DNA of 49,897 nt from Escherichia phage JLBYU19: sequence record OK272489.1; one strand, 5' to 3'. Numbering within the stretch: the stretch's first letter is position 1; each line of letters starts with the position of its first letter. Under the pieces are notes generated by a model. That model did no database searches. It saw only the letters and a list, made by a program, of their open reading frames with translations, and had not been told where the DNA came from. Positions 987-46,810 of this stretch are shown in pieces. The position numbers were made by a program, and so were the translations under genes.

Positions 987-1463
987 TTAGCTATTCGTGC
1001 TGTTATCACCTTTGTAGAATCTTCCGCCTGGTTCGTAGTCTGAATTTTTGACTACGCGCAACATTTCGTATTTGTCGCAACGGGTAGTAAGAGGCTTGCC
1101 GTTAGAATCAAACCGCAGATCTGGACGACAAAACGAGGCGCGGTATCCTTTGCATCCATTATATTTGTAGTCGTTATGCACCTTTTGTGCTCCAGCGGCT
1201 GAAATCATACCACGCTTTCGCCATTGGTTAACGACTTGCTGAGATACGCGCAGACGTCGAGCCATAGCAGGAACACCGCCGTAATACTCGATCAGAATGT
1301 CAAGGCGAGATTTCAGGCTTGCTTTTACCTCATCTCGCAGGATAAGAAATCCGGTTCGGTGTTTTCGTGGCTTTTTGTCTTTACCTCGTCGCGTTCCGTT
1401 GTTACCGTTAATAGTGCGCTTGTCGATCTCACCCGTAGATACTGCAATTCGTGCATCTTTCAT
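987..1463 (-). CDS. putative HTH DNA-binding protein
   Basis: 158 aa, basic; RRLRVSQQVVNQWRKRG helix-turn-helix-like segment; GAGGTGA RBS; divergent from helicase gene. Confidence 0.5.
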   Translation of the reverse strand: MKDARIAVSTGEIDKRTINGNNGTRRGKDKKPRKHRTGFLILRDEVKASLKSRLDILIEYYGGVPAMARRLRVSQQVVNQWRKRGMISAAGAQKVHNDYKYNGCKGYRASFCRPDLRFDSNGKPLTTRCDKYEMLRVVKNSDYEPGGRFYKGDNSTNS

Positions 1464-14252: not shown

Positions 14253-14310
14253 TTTCAAATCCTCGCATTCGTTGTCGATGCGTGTAATGTACAGGAATGC
14301 GAGGATTGAG

Positions 14311-16188: not shown

Positions 16189-16216
16189 TTGACACGCACC
16201 AAATAGCTTTTATAAT
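16189..16216 (+). promoter_or_regulatory. sigma70-type promoter (consensus hexamers)
   Basis: TTGACA 16189-16194, 16-nt spacer, TATAAT 16211-16216; 32 nt upstream of ATG 16248. Confidence 0.6.
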
Positions 16217-29257: not shown

Positions 29258-29276
29258 GTTTAACAAAAAGTGCTAT
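29258..29276 (-). promoter_or_regulatory. conserved junction element, oriented away from adjacent capsid gene
   Basis: plus strand reads GTTTAACAAAAAGTGCTAT; flanked by inverted repeat TGATAGCA (29234) / TGCTATCA (29271). Confidence 0.45.
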
Positions 29277-33010: not shown

Positions 33011-33029
33011 TTTTAACAAAAAGTGCTAT
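33011..33029 (-). promoter_or_regulatory. conserved junction element, oriented away from adjacent tail chaperone gene
   Basis: plus strand reads TTTTAACAAAAAGTGCTAT immediately followed by AAGGAG RBS of 33044 gene. Confidence 0.45.
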
Positions 33030-38962: not shown

Positions 38963-41900
38963 ATGGCTAAATATATGATAAGCGGCAGCAAGGGCGGAAG
39001 CAAAAAGCCATACGTGCCAAAAGAGATGGAAGATAACCTTATCTCGATAAACAAGATTAAAGTTTTGCTGGCTGTATCTGATGGCGAGTGCGATCCAGAT
39101 TTCACGTTGCGCGATCTTTATCTTGATGATGTTCCGGTTATTGCCAGCGATGGCACTGTTAACTACGAGGGAGTTACGGCTGAATATCGACCAGGTACGC
39201 AGACGCAAGATTACATCCAGGGTTTTACTGACACATCAAGTGAGGTGACAGTTGCAAGAGATATTACCGGAGACAATCCTTATATTATTTCTGTTACAAA
39301 TAAAAATCTATCTGCGGTAAGAATAAAGATCCTGATGCCAGTAGGCATTAAAACAGAGGATAACGGCGATCTTGTTGGCGTAAGGGTTGAGTATGCCGTA
39401 GATATGGCTGTTGATGGCGGTTCTTATAGCGAGGTTATGAGAGATGTAATTGACGGCAAGACAAGATCAGGATACGACCGCAGCAGAAGGATTGATCTTC
39501 CTAAGTTTGATGAGCGCGTTTTAATCCGAGTAAAGCGACTGACTCCAGACAGCACATCTTCAAAGGTGACTGATAAAATCAAGCTGCAAAGTTACGCTGA
39601 GGTTATTGATGCAAAATTCCGCTATCCTCTGACTGGACTTGTATTCGTAGAATTTGACAGCGAATTGTTTCCTACGCAAATCCCTAACATTTCTATAAAA
39701 AAGAAATGGAAGATTATTAATGTGCCAAGCAACTATGATCCAATATCAAGAGAATATCACGGGTCATGGGATGGGACTTTTAAAAAAGCGTGGTCAAATA
39801 ATCCTGCTTGGGTTCTTTATGATCTGGTGACAAATCAGCGTTATGGACTTGATCAGCGAGAGTTAGGAATACAGATCGACAAGTGGAGCTTATACGAGGC
39901 GGGCGTTTACTGCGATCAGAAAGTTCCAGACGGTAAAGGCGGCACTGAGCCTCGCTACCTATGCGATGTGGTGATTCAGAATCAAGTTGAGGCTTATCAG
40001 CTAATCCGTGACATTTGCTCAATCTTTCGCGGAATGAGTTTTTGGAATGGTGAGAGCTTATCAATCGTGATTGATAAGCCGCGCGATCCATCATACGTGT
40101 TTACTAATGAAAACGTCATCAACGGTGATTTTCAGTACACAAACGCAAGCGAAAAAAGCATGTACACGCAGTGTAACGTGACGTTTGACGACGAACAAAA
40201 CATGTATCAGCAGGACGTAGAGGGGGTTTTTGATACTGAGGCGGCATTACGATTTGGATACAACCCAACAAGCATTACAGCGATCGGGTGTACGCGCAGG
40301 AGCGAAGCGAATCGTCGCGGTCGTTGGGTTTTGAAAACAAACCTTAGAAGCACTACTGTAAACTTTGCTACCGGACTAGAGGGGATGATTCCATCAATAG
40401 GTGATGTTATTGCTATCGCTGATAATTTTCAGAGTAGCAACCTAACGTTAAACCTATCGGGCCGAGTAATGGAAGTTTCAGGGCTGCAGGTTTTCGTTCC
40501 GTTTAAGGTTGATGCTCGCCCTGGTGATTTTATTATCATCAACAAGCCGGACGGCAAGCCAGTTAAGCGCACGATCTCAAAGGTTAGCGCAGACGGAAAA
40601 ACCATTGAGTTAAATATTGGATTTGGTTTTGATGTTAAGCCTGATACTGTTTTTGCGATTGACCGTACTGATCTTGCGTTGCAGCAATACGTTGTGACAA
40701 CCATCAGCAAGGGTGATGACGAAGACGAGTTTACCTATTCAATCACGGCTGTAGAGTACGATCCGAACAAATACGACGAGATTGATTATGGAGTAAACAT
40801 TGATGACAGACCGACTTCAATTGTTCAGCCTGACGTGATGGCAGCGCCTGAGAACGTTAAGATCTCATCTTATTCTCGCGTCGTGCAGGGTGTTAGCGTT
40901 GAGACTATGGTTGTTTCATGGGATAAGGTTCCTTACGCATCGCTTTATGAAATGCAGTGGCGAAAAGGTGATGGTAACTGGCTGAATACGCCGCAGACCG
41001 CTAACAAAGAGATAGAGGTAGAAGGGATTTACTCTGGCAACTACCAAGTAAGGGTGAGATCCGTTTCTGCAAGCGGTAACGCTTCCCCGTGGTCAAAGAT
41101 TGCAACCGCCACTCTGACAGGTAAAGTTGGAGAGCCAGGAGCGCCGATTAATCTTACGGCTTCTGATAATGAAGTTTTTGGCATTCGTGTCAAATGGGGT
41201 ATGCCGGAAGGATCAGGCGATACGGCTTACATTGAGCTTCACCAATCGCCAGACGGAACGGTTGAAAACTCAAGTCTGCTTACGCTGATTCCATATCCTC
41301 AATATGAGTATTGGCATAGCACGTTACCAGCGGGGCAAGTTGTATGGTATAGAATCCGCAGCGTTGACAGAATAGGCAACGTTTCAAGCTGGACTGACTT
41401 TGTTCGCGGCATGGCGTCAGATGACGTTGAATCTGTTTTGGGCGACATTCTGGACAAGATTTTTGATACAGAAGCTGGTCAAGAAATCAAAGAGAACGCC
41501 ATAGACAGTGCCAATAAAATCAAAGACCAGGCGCAATCAATCATACAGAACGCGTTGGCAAATGATGCAGATGTGAAGTGGACGCGAGTGCAAAACGGAA
41601 AGCGCAAGGCTGAATATGGTCATGCTCTTGAGCTTATCGCCAATGAAACAGAAGCGCGCGTAACTCAAATCGAAGAATTAAGGGCATCAATTGATGGCGA
41701 GATAACATCAAGCATCAAGACAGTGCAGGAGGCAATTGCCACTGAATCAGAGACGCGAGCGACTCAAATTCAGCAGCTTGATTCTAAATTCACAAAAGAA
41801 ATCGACGGCGTGCGCAAGGATACTTCTGCAAGCATTAGCGATGTAAGGCAGACAATCACTAACGAGTCAGAAGCGCGCGCTCAGGCCGTTCAGCAGCTTG

Positions 41901-44175: not shown

Positions 44176-44203
44176 TTGACTAAATCAACCAAGTGGCTAC
44201 AAT
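44176..44203 (+). promoter_or_regulatory. sigma70-type promoter
   Basis: TTGACT 44176-44181, 16-nt spacer, TACAAT 44198-44203; upstream of exonuclease gene. Confidence 0.55.
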
Positions 44204-44233
44204 GCACGCATAAAGCAACAAGGAGCATTAAAG

Positions 44234-45289
44234 ATGAGTGATTTTAACGCCTACACTAGCGAAGAAATGAGCAACGAGCTTTATCATGATCCTAACGCGT
44301 GGACGGCTGAATATGTCAGCGGTTCCAGCCTGGCGGAGATTTACAGCACTTGCCCGGCGTACTGGAAGTACAAGCCGCGCCAGGAAACTAAAGCACTTGT
44401 TTTCGGTACGCAGTCGCATACCAACTTTGAAAGCAAGGAGCTATTCGAAAAAACATATCGCCGCGCACCGTCGCAGGATGATTTTAAAGACCTGATCACT
44501 AGTCAAACGGCGTTAGCATCAAAGCTGAAATCTTTTGGCCTGAAAGGTACGACGGGTAAACAATACCCTGAATTACTGGAAATGCTGTACAAGTGCGGCG
44601 AGGATCTCAATGTGTGGTGGCTTATCGAAATGATGGCAGAATGCCAGGCCGCAGCGGACGGAGTGCAGTTAATAGACGCTAAAGATTATGATGCCTGTGT
44701 AGCGATGCGGCGCGTACTTGAGGCCATACCGGAGCATAACGCTTGCATGAACAGCCCAACCGCGCAGCGTGAAATGTCAATATTTGGGATCATCAACGGC
44801 GTAAAAGTAAAAGTGCGTCTTGATCACGTTGACGTAAACAAGGATGTAAAGGCAACAATCATTAACGGTTACGACGAAAAAGGCAGGCCGATTTATGAAG
44901 AAGTCACCTATCCAGAAGCGGTGATTATCACTGACTACAAAACAACGGTTAGCGCAAATCCGGTTGACTTCCAGCGCCTGGCTTACAATCACGGCTATTA
45001 TCTTAAAATGGCTTTGCAACATGACTTATTCAAAAAGGCGTATCCAGACGAGGAAAGGCCAGTGATTGTAAGATTGCTTGCTCAAGAGAAGAAAGAGCCT
45101 TACTTGCCGCTCGCATTCCGCATGAACATTGAGCAGTTGAAGATTGGGCGTATCCAGTACATGAGCGTGATCAACAAGTTTAACGTTTGCCAGCAGTTAG
45201 ATGAATGGCCTTCGTATGCAAACGGACAACCAGAAATTGATCTTGATACTCCTGATTGGGTACGTGCTCAATTCAGGCAGTATCTGTGA
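44234..45289 (+). CDS. recombination exonuclease (PD-(D/E)xK, RecE/YqaJ-like)
   Basis: 351 aa; RLDHVD ... ITDYKTT nuclease-type motifs; first gene after sigma70-type promoter; precedes Erf and SSB. Confidence 0.5.
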   Translation: MSDFNAYTSEEMSNELYHDPNAWTAEYVSGSSLAEIYSTCPAYWKYKPRQETKALVFGTQSHTNFESKELFEKTYRRAPSQDDFKDLITSQTALASKLKSFGLKGTTGKQYPELLEMLYKCGEDLNVWWLIEMMAECQAAADGVQLIDAKDYDACVAMRRVLEAIPEHNACMNSPTAQREMSIFGIINGVKVKVRLDHVDVNKDVKATIINGYDEKGRPIYEEVTYPEAVIITDYKTTVSANPVDFQRLAYNHGYYLKMALQHDLFKKAYPDEERPVIVRLLAQEKKEPYLPLAFRMNIEQLKIGRIQYMSVINKFNVCQQLDEWPSYANGQPEIDLDTPDWVRAQFRQYL

Positions 45290-45320
45290 CAAACTAAACA
45301 AATAGCTAAACTTTTATAAT

Positions 45321-45344
45321 GGTTGGTGATATAATTCACCAACC
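45321..45344. repeat. perfect 9-bp inverted repeat GGTTGGTGA-tataat-TCACCAACC
   Basis: palindrome directly after TATAAT at 45315-45320, 20 nt upstream of ATG 45365. Confidence 0.5.
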
Positions 45345-45364
45345 AGATAACGGGAGAATGAGAA

Positions 45365-45622
45365 ATGACAGATAAAGACAATGCCACATTATTGCATTTA
45401 GAACGATTCATTGATCGAGTAACCATTGCAATGAAAGAATTTATTAAGCCGATGAACATTAAAGAGTCGGAAGAAATGAAGACTTATATCAAGGACGTGG
45501 TTGCATCCATTGACAATGTTATCCTTGTTGCAACGATGAGCAAGGGAAACAAAGAGCGAGAGAGGTTGGTTGCTGAATCAACAGAAGAATTTATTAAAAT
45601 GCTTGAAAGCGAGAAGGAATAA
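45365..45622 (+). CDS. hypothetical protein
   Basis: 85 aa; GGGAGAA RBS. Confidence 0.45.
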   Translation: MTDKDNATLLHLERFIDRVTIAMKEFIKPMNIKESEEMKTYIKDVVASIDNVILVATMSKGNKERERLVAESTEEFIKMLESEKE

Positions 45623-46276
<654 letters not shown>

Positions 46277-46279
<3 letters not shown>

Positions 46280-46325
46280 TAAACGGGGCGCTTGCGCCCC
46301 TTTTGTCATAGGAGAAAACAAAATG
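46277..46325 (+). repeat. leader element shared with connector-gene leader (30616-30667)
   Basis: same stop-hairpin-TTGTCATA-GGAGAAAACAAA-ATG arrangement. Confidence 0.55.
46285..46308 (+). terminator. hairpin/attenuator in ssb leader
   Basis: GGGGCGC-tt-GCGCCCC followed by TTTTGTCAT. Confidence 0.4.
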
Positions 46326-46775
46326 CACGTTATTACAGGTGAGATTCGAAAAGAGCCAAAAGTAAAGCAAATGCCTAACGGCAGCACGCTATATGTTATT
46401 GAGCTTTCCGAGCGATACAAAGACCGAGAAGGAAATTGGCAGTATACAAACTATGTGTTTTTCTTTAACGCGAAAACAGACGGCCTGAATGGTTGGTATG
46501 CCGAGGCGTTCCAGGTAGGCAAGGTTGTTTCTGTTTCCTGCGATACCTTGCGAGTTGAAACGCGAGAATACAACGGAAAGATTTACAGCACCGTGCAGCC
46601 TGGCGGATTTGCAAACTTGCTATTTAGCCAGAGAGGTGAAAGCCAGCAACAATATCAGCAGCGAACGCAAGGAGGCTGGGGGCAACCACAACAGCAACAG
46701 CAACAAAATACTCAACAGCATCCGCAGCAAAGCAATCAGCCTCCGATTGACTTTGACGACGATATACCATTCTGA
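46323..46775 (+). CDS. ssb: single-stranded DNA-binding protein
   Basis: 150 aa from ATG 46323 (AGGAG RBS); Gln/Gly-rich linker and acidic C-terminal tail DFDDDIPF. Confidence 0.8.
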   Translation: MHVITGEIRKEPKVKQMPNGSTLYVIELSERYKDREGNWQYTNYVFFFNAKTDGLNGWYAEAFQVGKVVSVSCDTLRVETREYNGKIYSTVQPGGFANLLFSQRGESQQQYQQRTQGGWGQPQQQQQQNTQQHPQQSNQPPIDFDDDIPF

Positions 46776-46783
46776 TAACAAAA

Positions 46784-46810
46784 AGCCCCGCATATGCGGG
46801 GCTTTTTTTA
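46784..46810. terminator. bidirectional terminator between ssb and leftward fiber cluster
   Basis: AGCCCCGC-atat-GCGGGGCT hairpin flanked by A5 and T7. Confidence 0.7.

What the first reader, a model, noticed from the sequence alone, without database searches (positions are those of the whole stretch)
45298..45344. Perfect 9-bp palindrome overlapping a -10 element inside the recombination operon
GGTTGGTGA-TATAAT-TCACCAACC (45321-45344) directly follows TATAAT at 45315-45320 and precedes gene 45365. The AAATAGCT-N10-TATAAT arrangement resembles the promoter at 16201-16216. This is a candidate operator for a dimeric repressor, or an RNA hairpin affecting translation of the downstream gene.
Basis: seen in the sequence. 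Interest (0 to 1): 0.4.

Follow-up and report, generated by a model that had tools for sequence, protein, structure and literature searches.

The report
Conserved hairpin wrapped around internal promoter
The palindrome is a real hairpin, conserved across T1-like phages, whose loop is the -10 box of an internal promoter for the recombination genes; it is one copy of a promoter-plus-hairpin module repeated across these genomes, not a repressor binding site.

Summary
The window is a T1-like coliphage (Drexlerviridae, Warwickvirus; 99% identical to phage tunzivis).

**What is there.** The palindrome is real and is 10 bp, not 9: TGGTTGGTGA-TATAAT-TCACCAACCA, 45320-45345. It lies between the exonuclease VIII gene and an 85-aa ORF, followed by erf and ssb. 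A 10-bp palindrome alone is not rare in 50 kb (P about 0.45).

**Why it is real.**
- In 21 distinct relatives, including T1, the stem changes sequence but keeps pairing. The covariation score is 0.41 against 0.17 in shuffles (0 of 500 reach it).
- Wobble pairs are tolerated on the sense strand: the sense fold is more stable in 24 relatives, the antisense fold in 2.
- The loop TGnTATAAT and an upstream block stay fixed.

**Context.** That block is a decayed copy of the 21-nt T1-family intergenic repeat (aaATAGCACnnnTTGnTAAAA), whose function is unknown in the literature. In 98 of 150 repeat copies a -10-like hexamer sits exactly 21-22 nt downstream. Most copies also carry a hairpin in the spacer or around the -10.

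**Best reading.** This is an internal sigma-70-type promoter with an extended -10. An RNA hairpin is nested on it and can form only in read-through transcripts from the exonuclease gene.

**Rejected.** It is not an operator, not an intrinsic terminator, and does not sequester the ribosome-binding site. No transcription-start data exist.

The parts
44176..44203 (+). Sigma-70-like promoter candidate for the exonuclease gene (TTGACT-16-TACAAT). It is the presumed source of read-through transcripts that contain the hairpin.
   Evidence: 10 of 12 consensus matches. T1 carries an annotated promoter at the equivalent place upstream of its exonuclease gene. No terminator-like site lies on the + strand between this promoter and 45320.
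44234..45289 (+). Exonuclease VIII-type (PD-(D/E)XK) recombination exonuclease gene, upstream of the element.
   Evidence: ORF. (Pfam DUF3799, 3.9e-13). (phrog_412 exonuclease VIII, 2.7e-96). Annotated as exodeoxyribonuclease VIII in relatives.
45291..45311 (+). Decayed 'A-type' copy of the T1-family 21-nt intergenic direct repeat (aaACTAAACAAATAGCTAAAC against the consensus aaATAGCACnnnTTGnTAAAA). It is the upstream promoter element. Its 3' end provides a weak -35-like hexamer, TAAACT (45307-45312, 3 of 6 matches, 17-nt spacer).
   Evidence: Consensus from PMC11447400. Orthologues keep more of it: ACAGCACAAATAGCTAAAC in Hanrivervirus and ATAGCACAAATAGCTAAAC in L014. CAAATAGCTAAAC lies a fixed 18 nt before the TATAAT in every T1-like match of the scan that allowed 14-22 nt; the block itself was required by that scan. 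The repeat starts 74 nt before the ATG, against about 76 nt reported for TLS.
45315..45320 (+). First TATAAT. It is specific to the Warwickvirus lineage and is probably not the functional -10.
   Evidence: Other genera read AAATGAAAA(A) here. No usable -35 hexamer lies 16-18 nt upstream (read).
45320..45329 (+). 5' arm of the hairpin (TGGTTGGTGA). Its last bases, TG at 45327-45328, are the extended -10 motif.
   Evidence: Covariation is shown, alignment columns 23-32.
45330..45335 (+). Hairpin loop, which is also the -10 hexamer TATAAT of the internal promoter. With 45327-45329 it reads TGATATAAT.
   Evidence: TG is invariant or nearly invariant in alignment A1; TATAAT was required by the scan. 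The hexamer sits 21 nt after TAGCTA, the same 21-22 nt offset as in 98 of 150 repeat modules. GenBank OL960578 annotates TAAACA-N17-TATAAT as a promoter at the orthologous T1-group site.
45336..45345 (+). 3' arm of the hairpin (TCACCAACCA). The predicted transcription start (A45341 or A45342, 6-7 nt after the -10) falls inside it. Transcripts made from this promoter therefore cannot form the hairpin.
   Evidence: The start position is inferred from standard sigma-70 geometry and has not been measured. (third fold) shows that the RNA from 45341 onward is unstructured (-0.4 kcal/mol).
45352..45367 (+). Shine-Dalgarno sequence GGGAGAA (45352-45358) and ATG (45365-45367) of the 85-aa ORF. Both are unpaired in the predicted fold.
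45365..45622 (+). 85-aa ORF of unknown function. It is present or absent among Warwickviruses and is not needed for the element.
   Evidence: No Pfam hit. phrog_11265, labelled 'tail length tape measure protein', is almost certainly a misnomer for an 85-aa protein in a recombination operon. In atuna and tunus the same hairpin directly precedes erf.
45626..46279 (+). Erf-family single-strand annealing protein gene, driven by the internal promoter and by read-through.
   Evidence: Pfam ERF, 7.4e-20; phrog_155.
46323..46775 (+). Single-strand DNA-binding protein gene. The ATG start is taken from the tunzivis annotation; the mechanical ORF starts at TTG 46272.
   Evidence: phrog_44, 2.8e-22.
46780..46807 (.). 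Bidirectional intrinsic terminator that ends the operon.
   Evidence: 14-bp perfect inverted repeat flanked by A and T runs.

Best explanation
The element has two layers.

**1. DNA level: an internal host-polymerase promoter.**
- It belongs to a class specific to T1-like phages.
- Its parts are a decayed copy of the family's 21-nt upstream repeat (45291-45311), almost no -35, and a perfect extended -10, TGATATAAT (45327-45335).
- The predicted start is at A45341 or A45342.
- It adds transcripts for the 85-aa ORF, erf and ssb on top of read-through from the exonuclease promoter. This would raise the dose of the stoichiometric DNA-binding proteins relative to the nuclease.

**2. RNA level: a nested hairpin.**
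- The two stretches flanking the -10 (45320-45329 and 45336-45345) are kept complementary.
- Transcripts that enter from the exonuclease gene fold a 10-bp hairpin with the -10 as its loop. Transcripts started at the internal promoter begin inside the 3' arm and lack it.
- The hairpin most likely acts as an intercistronic stability or processing barrier. It could be a 3' block to exonucleases for the exonuclease message, or a 5' cap-like stem after cleavage in the AU-rich repeat.
- The -10 serves as the loop because it is the only AT-rich, sequence-fixed stretch in a 75-nt spacer.

**Shown:** the structure, its conservation, covariation and strand bias, the coupling of repeat to -10, and the genome-wide repetition of the design.

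**Inferred:** promoter activity, the start site, and the specific RNA function.
For: **Structure**
- In 21 distinct orthologues from IMG/VR and GenBank, 78.6% of cells are paired.
- 6 of 10 pairs show double changes, for example pair 25-46: UA 8, CG 7, GC 3, GU 2.
- The covariation score is 0.409 against 0.167 in shuffles (0 of 500 reach it); slid controls score 0.115 or less. RNAalifold finds the same helix independently.
- Relatives found through the Erf protein (L125-L130, Erf 48-59% identical) also put the -10 (TATAGT or TATATT) at the apex of a different stem. That search required no DNA motif.
- The element is present in T1 itself and in a Klebsiella phage.

**Strand**
- The sense fold averages -13.8 kcal/mol and the antisense fold -10.5. 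Sense is better in 24 orthologues and antisense in 2 (p = 2e-5).
- Single-base variants such as tunzivis TCGCC, haarsle and PHB17 give G.U pairs on the sense strand.

**Promoter**
- TGnTATAAT is fixed in every member of the motif-collected alignment (TG invariant or nearly so); the more distant relatives found through Erf carry TATAGT or TATATT without the TG.
- In 150 distinct repeat modules, a -10-like hexamer lies 21 nt (46 modules) or 22 nt (52 modules) after TTGnTA. Any other offset has 0-14.
- All window copies point with their genes.
- One GenBank record annotates a promoter at the orthologous site.

**Family-wide design**
- In 60 non-orthologous modules the sense fold averages -9.9 kcal/mol against -4.8 in shuffles (p = 6e-10). 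Sense beats antisense in 39 against 9.
- Loops cluster either at -24 to -19 or on the -10.
- Hairpins occur in 26 of 29 modules that follow a co-directional gene, but in 1 of 5 modules that start a transcription unit (p = 0.0035). This fits a role on incoming RNA.
- No terminator lies between the exonuclease promoter and the hairpin.
Against: - No experimental transcription start, 3'-end or stability data for any Drexlerviridae phage were found. Promoter activity and the RNA role are therefore inferred.
- The window's own repeat copy is degenerate (11 of 17 specified positions) and its -35 is poor (3 of 6).
- The updated T1 GenBank record annotates no promoter here.
- Hairpin position is inherited among orthologues, so '-10 in the loop' at this one locus could be historical accident.
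- The test of unit-start against co-directional modules has small numbers, and window and T1 modules are not independent. It has counter-examples: T1 36444 has a hairpin, and window 13823 lacks one.
- A 10-bp stem without a U-run has no proven barrier function in this system.
Confidence: 0.55

Rival explanations
1. The hairpin is a non-canonical attenuator or insulator. It pauses or partly terminates polymerases arriving from the exonuclease gene, perhaps with a phage or host factor. Expression of erf and ssb is then set mainly by the nested promoter, whose own transcripts escape because they lack the 5' arm.
For: - In some sister modules the hairpin that encloses a -10-like hexamer is a true intrinsic terminator with a U-run: window 1003(-), T1 35995(-), and modules in L014 and L075.
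- Spacer-type hairpins are followed by the U/A-rich -10, for example 8297 GUCGGGU-AUAUUUGUUU.
- Hairpins are largely restricted to modules with incoming co-directional transcription.
Against: - At this locus, and in all its orthologues, the stem is followed by AGAUAAC, AUAAGUUAAC or AUACACC, with no U-run.
- The terminator scan did not call it.
- The operon has its own strong terminator after ssb.
Confidence: 0.15
2. The palindrome works in DNA. A cruciform or a non-template-strand hairpin presents the -10 as single-stranded DNA, making the promoter sensitive to supercoiling or pre-melted. This would be loosely like the hairpin promoters of phage N4.
For: - The -10 sits exactly in the loop here and in many sister modules.
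- These promoters lack a -35.
- Sigma-70 reads the -10 as single-stranded non-template DNA (established knowledge).
Against: - A cruciform needs both strands to pair. Substitutions are tolerated as G.T on the sense strand, which become A.C mismatches on the other strand (24 against 2; 39 against 9).
- Stems of 7-10 bp are short for extrusion.
- Half the sister modules place the hairpin in the spacer, not on the -10.
- Hairpins are scarce at promoters that start a transcription unit, which a promoter-intrinsic role would not predict.
Confidence: 0.1
3. The palindrome is an operator. A dimeric DNA-binding protein binds across the -10 and represses the internal promoter. The protein could be a phage helix-turn-helix protein or host CRP, whose core TGTGA-N6-TCACA resembles GTGA-N6-TCAC at 45326-45339.
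For: - Perfect dyad symmetry is centred on the -10.
- The phage encodes a Cro/YdaS-like helix-turn-helix protein at 987-1463(-) (below the Pfam threshold). T1 has three annotated helix-turn-helix proteins.
- GTGA-N6-TCAC matches 8 of 10 CRP core positions. The CRP consensus is recalled from memory and is a lead only.
Against: - Arm sequences differ between genera while complementarity is kept.
- Exact half-sites occur nowhere else in the window, and 1-mismatch hits are near chance: 13 against 7.3 +/- 2.9 expected, none paired.
- Sister modules in the same genome carry unrelated palindromes.
- The asymmetry between G.U and A.C pairs has no meaning for a duplex-binding protein.
- GTGA-N6-TCAC occurs once against 0.53 expected. 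It is lost in the L024, L027, L075 and L125 types.
Confidence: 0.06
4. The RNA hairpin regulates translation of the downstream ORF (or of erf) on read-through transcripts.
For: - The hairpin ends about 20 nt before the start codon, at the edge of a ribosome footprint.
- In one sister module (DR at 14329-14311, - strand) a 13-bp hairpin does bury the Shine-Dalgarno sequence in read-through RNA, while the nested start site would free it.
Against: - Here the Shine-Dalgarno sequence and ATG are unpaired.
- The downstream gene differs between relatives (85-aa ORF or erf) while the hairpin is unchanged.
- No conserved alternative pairing with the Shine-Dalgarno sequence was seen.
Confidence: 0.08
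5. The palindrome is a chance inverted repeat with no function.
For: One or more perfect inverted repeats of at least 10 bp are expected in 44.5% of simulated windows.
Against: It is conserved with compensatory changes from Warwickvirus to T1 and to relatives with only 48% identical Erf.
Confidence: 0.02

Closest known systems
21-nt intergenic direct repeats of T1-like phages (aaATAGCACnnnTTGnTAAAA), described for TLS and noted in T1, Rtp and Rogue1 (PMC11447400)
   Same: - The block upstream of the palindrome is an orthologously decayed 'A-type' copy.
- It has the same orientation as transcription and the same distance to the start codon (74 nt against about 76 nt).
- The window has about 17 further copies (19 hits against 2.8 expected).
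   Different: - The literature gives no function; it suggests 'stoperators', enhancers or UP elements.
- It does not report the fixed 21-22 nt coupling to a -10 hexamer or the associated covarying hairpins.
- The window's copy at this locus has lost most of the 5' half (ATAGCAC has become ACTAAAC).
Extended -10 (TGnTATAAT) sigma-70 promoters that need no -35
   Same: - Perfect TGATATAAT with a poor -35.
- The position is appropriate for the downstream Shine-Dalgarno sequence and ATG.
- TG is conserved in the relatives that keep TATAAT.
   Different: - Activity is untested.
- The promoter is embedded in a phage-specific upstream repeat.
- The -10 is flanked by a maintained inverted repeat.
- More distant relatives use TATAGT without TG.
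Intercistronic mRNA-stabilising hairpins (E. coli REP/malE-malF type, and hairpins at phage gene ends)
   Same: - A GC-containing stem just after a stop codon inside a polycistronic message.
- No U-run.
- Selected on the sense strand.
- Would give the upstream and downstream segments different fates.
   Different: - It is nested on a promoter so that only read-through transcripts carry it.
- The stem is short (10 bp).
- The stabilising effect is not demonstrated.
Intrinsic (Rho-independent) terminators overlapping promoters
   Same: Some sister modules are real terminators that enclose a -10-like hexamer. The hairpin lies upstream of the start of the next unit.
   Different: No U-run at this locus in any relative.
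Phage N4 virion-RNA-polymerase hairpin promoters
   Same: A promoter associated with a small DNA hairpin.
   Different: - N4 uses a template-strand hairpin with a 3-nt loop and its own polymerase.
- Here the selection is on the sense strand and the loop is 6 nt.
- The phage family is reported to lack a polymerase gene (PMC11447400).

Membership tests
T1-family direct-repeat (DR) intergenic module | Match to aaATAGCACnnnTTGnTAAAA | tested here: inconclusive
   The window copy at 45291-45311 matches 11 of 17 specified positions. The 3' half, TAGCTAAAC, is kept and the 5' half has decayed. Orthologues at the same locus match with 1-3 mismatches, so membership rests on orthology.
T1-family direct-repeat (DR) intergenic module | Oriented with transcription, intergenic, about 76 nt before a start codon | tested here: met
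   + strand, between the exonuclease gene and the next ORF, 74 nt before ATG 45365. The criterion comes from PMC11447400.
T1-family direct-repeat (DR) intergenic module | -10-like hexamer 21-22 nt after the TTGnTA part (a feature defined here, not in the literature) | tested here: met
   TATAAT at 45330 lies 21 nt after TAGCTA (45303-45308). In 150 modules, 98 have a hexamer at offset 21 or 22, against 0-14 at other offsets.
Extended -10 sigma-70 promoter | TGnTATAAT motif | tested here: met
   TGATATAAT at 45327-45335. G31 is invariant and T30 is at least 90% conserved in alignment A1.
Extended -10 sigma-70 promoter | Transcription starts 6-8 nt downstream | not testable with these tools
   No 5'-end data for Drexlerviridae were found in the paper library.
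Intrinsic terminator | GC-rich stem-loop | tested here: met
   10-bp stem, -16.7 kcal/mol.
Intrinsic terminator | U-run immediately after the stem | tested here: not met
   The stem is followed by AGAUAACGGG. It was not called by the terminator scan, and no orthologue has a U-run.
Operator of a sequence-specific dimeric repressor | Half-site sequence conserved among relatives that share the regulator | tested here: not met
   The arms differ between genera with compensatory changes.
Operator of a sequence-specific dimeric repressor | Further copies at other regulated promoters in the genome | tested here: not met
   Exact half-sites occur only at this locus. With one mismatch there are 13 hits against 7.3 expected, none paired.
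CRP binding site | TGTGA-N6-TCACA core, conserved in orthologues | tested here: not met
   The core matches 8 of 10 positions here, but the pattern occurs at chance frequency and the right half is lost in several relatives. The consensus is recalled from memory.
Lambda-type nut site (boxA + boxB) | The same boxB loop at all sites in one genome, located downstream of the promoter | tested here: not met
   Loops and stems of sister modules are unrelated. The elements lie upstream of the predicted starts.
N4-type hairpin promoter | Template-strand hairpin with a 3-nt loop, read by a phage-encoded polymerase | tested here: not met
   Pairing is favoured on the sense strand and the loop is 6 nt. 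Absence of a polymerase gene is taken from PMC11447400 and was not tested here.
Any Rfam family | Covariance-model match | tested here: not met
   No hit at 45290-45360 even at E <= 1. All weak hits lie on the terminator at about 46780.

The most novel reading that the evidence does not exclude
T1-like phages organise much of their genome into self-insulating units with three parts.
- A 21-nt upstream repeat replaces the -35. It may be read by a phage factor, such as the Cro-like protein, or by the polymerase alpha subunit.
- A -10 lies exactly 21-22 nt downstream of the repeat.
- An RNA hairpin is nested on or just before that -10.

Each gene is then made as two RNA isoforms, read-through with the hairpin and locally initiated without it, and the two have different fates. 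If true, this answers the published open question of what the T1-family repeats do, and it defines a promoter-hairpin architecture not described for other phages.
Probability: 0.3. Interest if true: 0.65.

Novelty: new variant of a known kind. Interest (0 to 1): 0.45.

Why it matters
T1-like phages (Drexlerviridae) are among the commonest coliphages and Klebsiella phages. They are notorious laboratory contaminants and are candidates for phage therapy, yet how they time transcription is essentially unknown. [quoted passage not shown]

This finding leads directly to a testable answer. The repeats are coupled at a fixed distance to -10 boxes, which makes them promoter elements. Most are also paired with sense-strand hairpins that only incoming transcripts can form.

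For this particular locus, it explains how the annealing protein and the single-strand binding protein can be expressed above the level of the exonuclease from one operon. It also warns annotators that these sites are neither operators nor terminators.

Tried and rejected
AAATAGCT-N10-TATAAT gave no match even with 2 mismatches. The spacing was misread.
- **Likeness to the 16201 promoter.** The 8-mer AAATAGCT is not enriched and its spacing differs.
- **Second copies of the half-site.** None beyond chance.
- **Known RNA families.** No Rfam match, gathering or permissive.
- **Intrinsic terminator.** No U-run.
- **RNase III site.** The stem is 10 bp and does not extend. Only a weak 4-bp outer helix specific to this genus is predicted.
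- **CRP-like core.** At chance frequency and not conserved.
- **Link to the 85-aa ORF.** Rejected, because phages lacking the ORF keep the hairpin directly before erf.
- **Literature.**
  - Five full-text searches for Drexlerviridae or T1 promoters, start sites and transcriptomes found only the TLS repeat description and in silico promoter lists.
  - A search for the motif string 'ATAGCAC' returned only unrelated primer hits.
  - The T1 genome paper (PMID 14972552) is not held.
  - PMC13250531 has no Drexlerviridae transcript maps.
- **Pairing-probability profile.** Aligned on the -10, it showed only a modest peak (0.65-0.71 at -30 to -14 against about 0.45 elsewhere). I do not lean on it.
- **Not used.** The protein-database, structure-prediction and metagenome searches, because the question concerns non-coding sequence.
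Full report
**Identity of the window**

The window is a T1-like siphophage. Region 44200-46800 is 99.0% identical to Escherichia phage tunzivis (Drexlerviridae, Tempevirinae, Warwickvirus) and 95-99% identical to about 50 other coliphages.

The finding lies in a + strand operon:

| Coordinates | Gene | Support |
|---|---|---|
| 44234-45289 | exonuclease VIII | phrog_412, 2.7e-96 |
| 45365-45622 | 85-aa ORF | no Pfam hit |
| 45626-46279 | erf | Pfam ERF, 7.4e-20 |
| to 46775 | ssb | phrog_44, 2.8e-22 |

The operon ends at a 14-bp bidirectional terminator at 46780-46807. A sigma-70-like promoter candidate precedes the exonuclease gene at 44176-44203. No terminator-like site lies between it and the finding.

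**The observation**

- The repeat is 10 bp, not 9: TGGTTGGTGA / TCACCAACCA, 45320-45345. As RNA it folds at -16.7 kcal/mol, z = -4.75.
- The last stem bases plus the loop read TGATATAAT, a perfect extended -10 and one of two such sites in the window.
- The 'AAATAGCT-N10-TATAAT' arrangement does not exist. The spacing is N7 to the first TATAAT and N22 to the second, and N2 in the promoter at 16190-16216. The shared 8-mer is not enriched.

In simulated sequences a perfect inverted repeat of at least 10 bp appears in 44.5% of windows. The window alone therefore cannot establish significance.

**Conservation at this locus**

I compared the spacer between the exonuclease stop codon and the next gene in annotated relatives.
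- Warwickviruses that lack the 85-aa ORF (atuna, tunus) keep the hairpin directly before erf. The element therefore belongs to the intergenic region, not to that ORF.
- Other genera have different stems around the same loop:

| Lineage | 5' arm | Loop | 3' arm |
|---|---|---|---|
| Changchunvirus PHB17 | TACGGGGTGA | TATAAT | TCATCCCGTA |
| Hanrivervirus | ATGCGGTG | TTATAATT | CACCGCAT |

I then scanned IMG/VR for AAATAGCTAAAC-N14-22-TATAAT, which leaves the stem unconstrained.
- It returned about 46 T1-like contigs, all with N18, including T1 itself (48,836 bp).
- An ungapped alignment of 21 distinct sequences gave 78.6% paired cells and 6 of 10 pairs with double changes.
- The covariation score was 0.409 against 0.167 +/- 0.026 in shuffles (0 of 500 reach it). 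Slid-register controls scored 0.115 or less. RNAalifold recovered the same helix.
- Register-shifted variants (L024: ATGGAGG/CCTCCAT; L075: GCGGGCA/TGCCCGC) also pair.

Relatives found through the Erf protein, with no motif requirement (Erf 48-59% identical), carry GTGAGGTA-TAGT-TACCTCAT. This again puts the -10 (TATAGT or TATATT) at the apex. A Klebsiella-infecting Tempevirinae phage has the element too.

**Strand**

Single substitutions give G.U pairs on the + strand in tunzivis, haarsle and PHB17.

Across 29 distinct orthologous sequences the sense fold averages -13.8 kcal/mol and the antisense fold -10.5. Sense is better in 24 and antisense in 2 (p = 2e-5). Three of the 29 are adjacent repeat-plus-terminator modules picked up by the pattern.

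Selection therefore acts on the transcribed-sense strand. This points to RNA. It argues against a duplex-binding protein site and against a cruciform that needs both strands.

**Context: a genome-wide module**

The conserved block upstream (CAAATAGCTAAAC) turned out to be part of the 21-nt direct repeat described for phage TLS.
- Its consensus is aaATAGCACnnnTTGnTAAAA. TLS has 18-21 copies, oriented with transcription and about 76 nt before start codons.
- It occurs in 'A', 'T' and 'G' subtypes and is also seen in T1, Rtp and Rogue1.
- Its function is listed as an open question (PMC11447400).

The window has 19 matches against 2.8 expected. At this locus the orthologues read ACAGCAC-AAA-TAGCTAAAC (Hanrivervirus) or ATAGCAC-AAA-TAGCTAAAC (L014), which is an 'A-type' copy. 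In the window the 5' half has decayed.

Lining up the window's copies shows something the literature does not report. A -10-like hexamer (CATAAT, TATATT, TAAAAT, TACATT, TATAAT, TAAAGT or TATAGT) lies at a fixed distance.
- In 150 distinct modules from all fetched T1-like loci, 46 have it 21 nt and 52 have it 22 nt after TTGnTA. Every other offset has 0-14.
- The loop TATAAT of the finding sits at offset 21.
- The repeat therefore marks a promoter class without a usable -35.
- GenBank record OL960578 independently annotates TAAACA-N17-TATAAT as a promoter at the orthologous T1-group site. The curated T1 record does not.

**Hairpins are part of the module**

Most modules carry a GC-rich hairpin of one of two kinds.
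- In the spacer, with the loop at -24 to -19: window 3964, 5035, 8297, 11133, 19120.
- Enclosing the -10, with the loop at -15 to -7: window 10459, 17802, 20414 and the finding, plus most T1 early-region modules.

Excluding orthologues of the finding, 60 modules fold at -9.9 kcal/mol against -4.8 in shuffles (p = 6e-10). Sense is more stable than antisense in 39 against 9.

Different stems occupy the same position in related modules, for example CCCGGC/GTCGGG, CCCGAT/ATCGGG and CCCGAA/TTCGGG.

In every case the 5' arm is upstream of the predicted start. The promoter's own transcript therefore cannot form the hairpin.

I also compared modules by what lies upstream, using a gene map of the window and the annotated T1 genome:

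| Module type | Window | T1 |
|---|---|---|
| Follows a co-directional gene, has a stable hairpin | 12 of 13 | 14 of 16 |
| Starts a transcription unit, has a stable hairpin | 0 of 3 | 1 of 2 |

The pooled Fisher test gives p = 0.0035. The numbers are small and the modules are not independent. The direction fits a role on RNA arriving from upstream rather than a role intrinsic to the promoter.

**Mechanism at this locus**

- The predicted start is A45341 or A45342, inside the 3' arm. From there the leader is unstructured (-0.4 kcal/mol).
- In read-through RNA the hairpin forms, while the Shine-Dalgarno sequence and the ATG stay unpaired.
- The stem is followed by AGAUAAC with no U-run, here and in all orthologues. 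It is therefore not an intrinsic terminator.
- The most economical reading is an internal promoter that boosts erf and ssb, with a nested intercistronic RNA hairpin that marks only the read-through isoform. The hairpin probably acts as a decay or processing barrier.
- An attenuator role is the main rival. Some sister modules are genuine terminators enclosing a -10-like hexamer.

**Rejected readings**

- Operator: the arms are not conserved in sequence, no other copies exist, and sister palindromes are unrelated.
- CRP-like core GTGA-N6-TCAC: it occurs at chance frequency and is not conserved.
- Rfam: no match.
- RNase III site: the stem is too short.
- Nut-like site: the loops differ between modules.
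- N4-like promoter: wrong strand and wrong loop size.

**Limits**

No transcription-start, 3'-end or RNA-stability data for this phage family were found. Promoter activity, the start site and the hairpin's RNA function are inferences. The covariation statistics do not fully correct for phylogeny.

Noticed in passing
window, DR first base (strand): 1475(+), 3964(+), 5035(+), 8297(-), 10459(-), 11133(-), 13823(-), 14329(-), 15633(-), 17802(+), 19120(+), 20414(+), 24632(+), 29276(-), 33029(-), 43806(-), 49810(+), 1003(-): There are about 18 copies of the T1-family 21-nt repeat ATAGCACTTTTTGTTAAAA (19 hits against 2.8 expected). In about 14 of them a -10-like hexamer lies 21-22 nt after TTGTTA; 1003, 24632 and 49810 lack a clear one. 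This fixed coupling, seen in 98 of 150 modules across T1-like loci, is not in the literature I could read.
   Followed up: yes
window 14258-14307 (- strand module; DR at 14329-14311): A perfect 13-bp inverted repeat, AATCCTCGCATTC / GAATGCGAGGATT. Its 24-nt loop holds the module's -10 (TACATT) and the predicted start. Its 3' arm covers the Shine-Dalgarno sequence GAGGA of the next gene. Read-through RNA would bury the ribosome site, while locally initiated RNA would expose it.
   Followed up: partly
window 45365-45622; compare L002 (atuna) and L003 (tunus): The 85-aa ORF is cleanly present or absent among otherwise 95% identical Warwickviruses, with the junction in near-identical ribosome-site sequences (GAATGAGAAATGA against GAATAAGAAATGA). 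RefSeq and PHROG 11265 label the family 'tail length tape measure protein', which is almost certainly a wrong name.
   Followed up: partly
window 46224-46300: A near-consensus promoter, TTGACA-18-TAAAAT (11 of 12 matches), lies inside the 3' end of erf. It is followed by a terminator-like hairpin, GGGGCGCTTGCGCCCC-TTTT (46285-46300), just before ssb. T1 and SA32RD annotate a promoter and a terminator, respectively, at the equivalent places. This may be an attenuator controlling ssb.
   Followed up: no
window 16190-16216: A perfect consensus sigma-70 promoter, TTGACA-N17-TATAAT, faces the + strand genes at the divergent control region (about 15.6-16.2 kb). It is probably the main early rightward promoter.
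   Followed up: no
window 29258-29276(-) and 33011-33029(-); T1 15086(-) and 18850(-): Orphan repeat copies point against the + strand late structural genes, next to late-gene terminators, with no gene downstream on their strand. They might drive antisense RNA or act in an orientation-independent way.
   Followed up: no
L125-L129 (IMG/VR T1-like contigs of about 47-48 kb): In more distant relatives the exonuclease reading frame runs into the repeat and ends at its TAA (…AAC AGC ACG AAT AGC TAA). The promoter element therefore overlaps the last six codons.
   Followed up: no
GenBank MG065637, MG065643, MG065663 and other records (L004, L009, L011): About 18 'UNVERIFIED Campylobacter phage' records are T1-like Drexlerviridae genomes nearly identical to coliphages. 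They are likely mislabelled or are contaminants of the propagation host.
   Followed up: no
window 987-1463 (-): A 158-aa Cro/YdaS-like helix-turn-helix protein (Pfam hits below the curated threshold) is transcribed divergently from the helicase gene. It is the orthologue of T1's annotated P22 C2-like 'transcriptional regulator' and a candidate binder of the 21-nt repeat.
   Followed up: partly
window 40056-40079: A perfect 11-bp palindrome, GCTTATCAATC-TT-GATTGATAAGC, lies inside the 1209-aa tail fibre gene.
   Followed up: no
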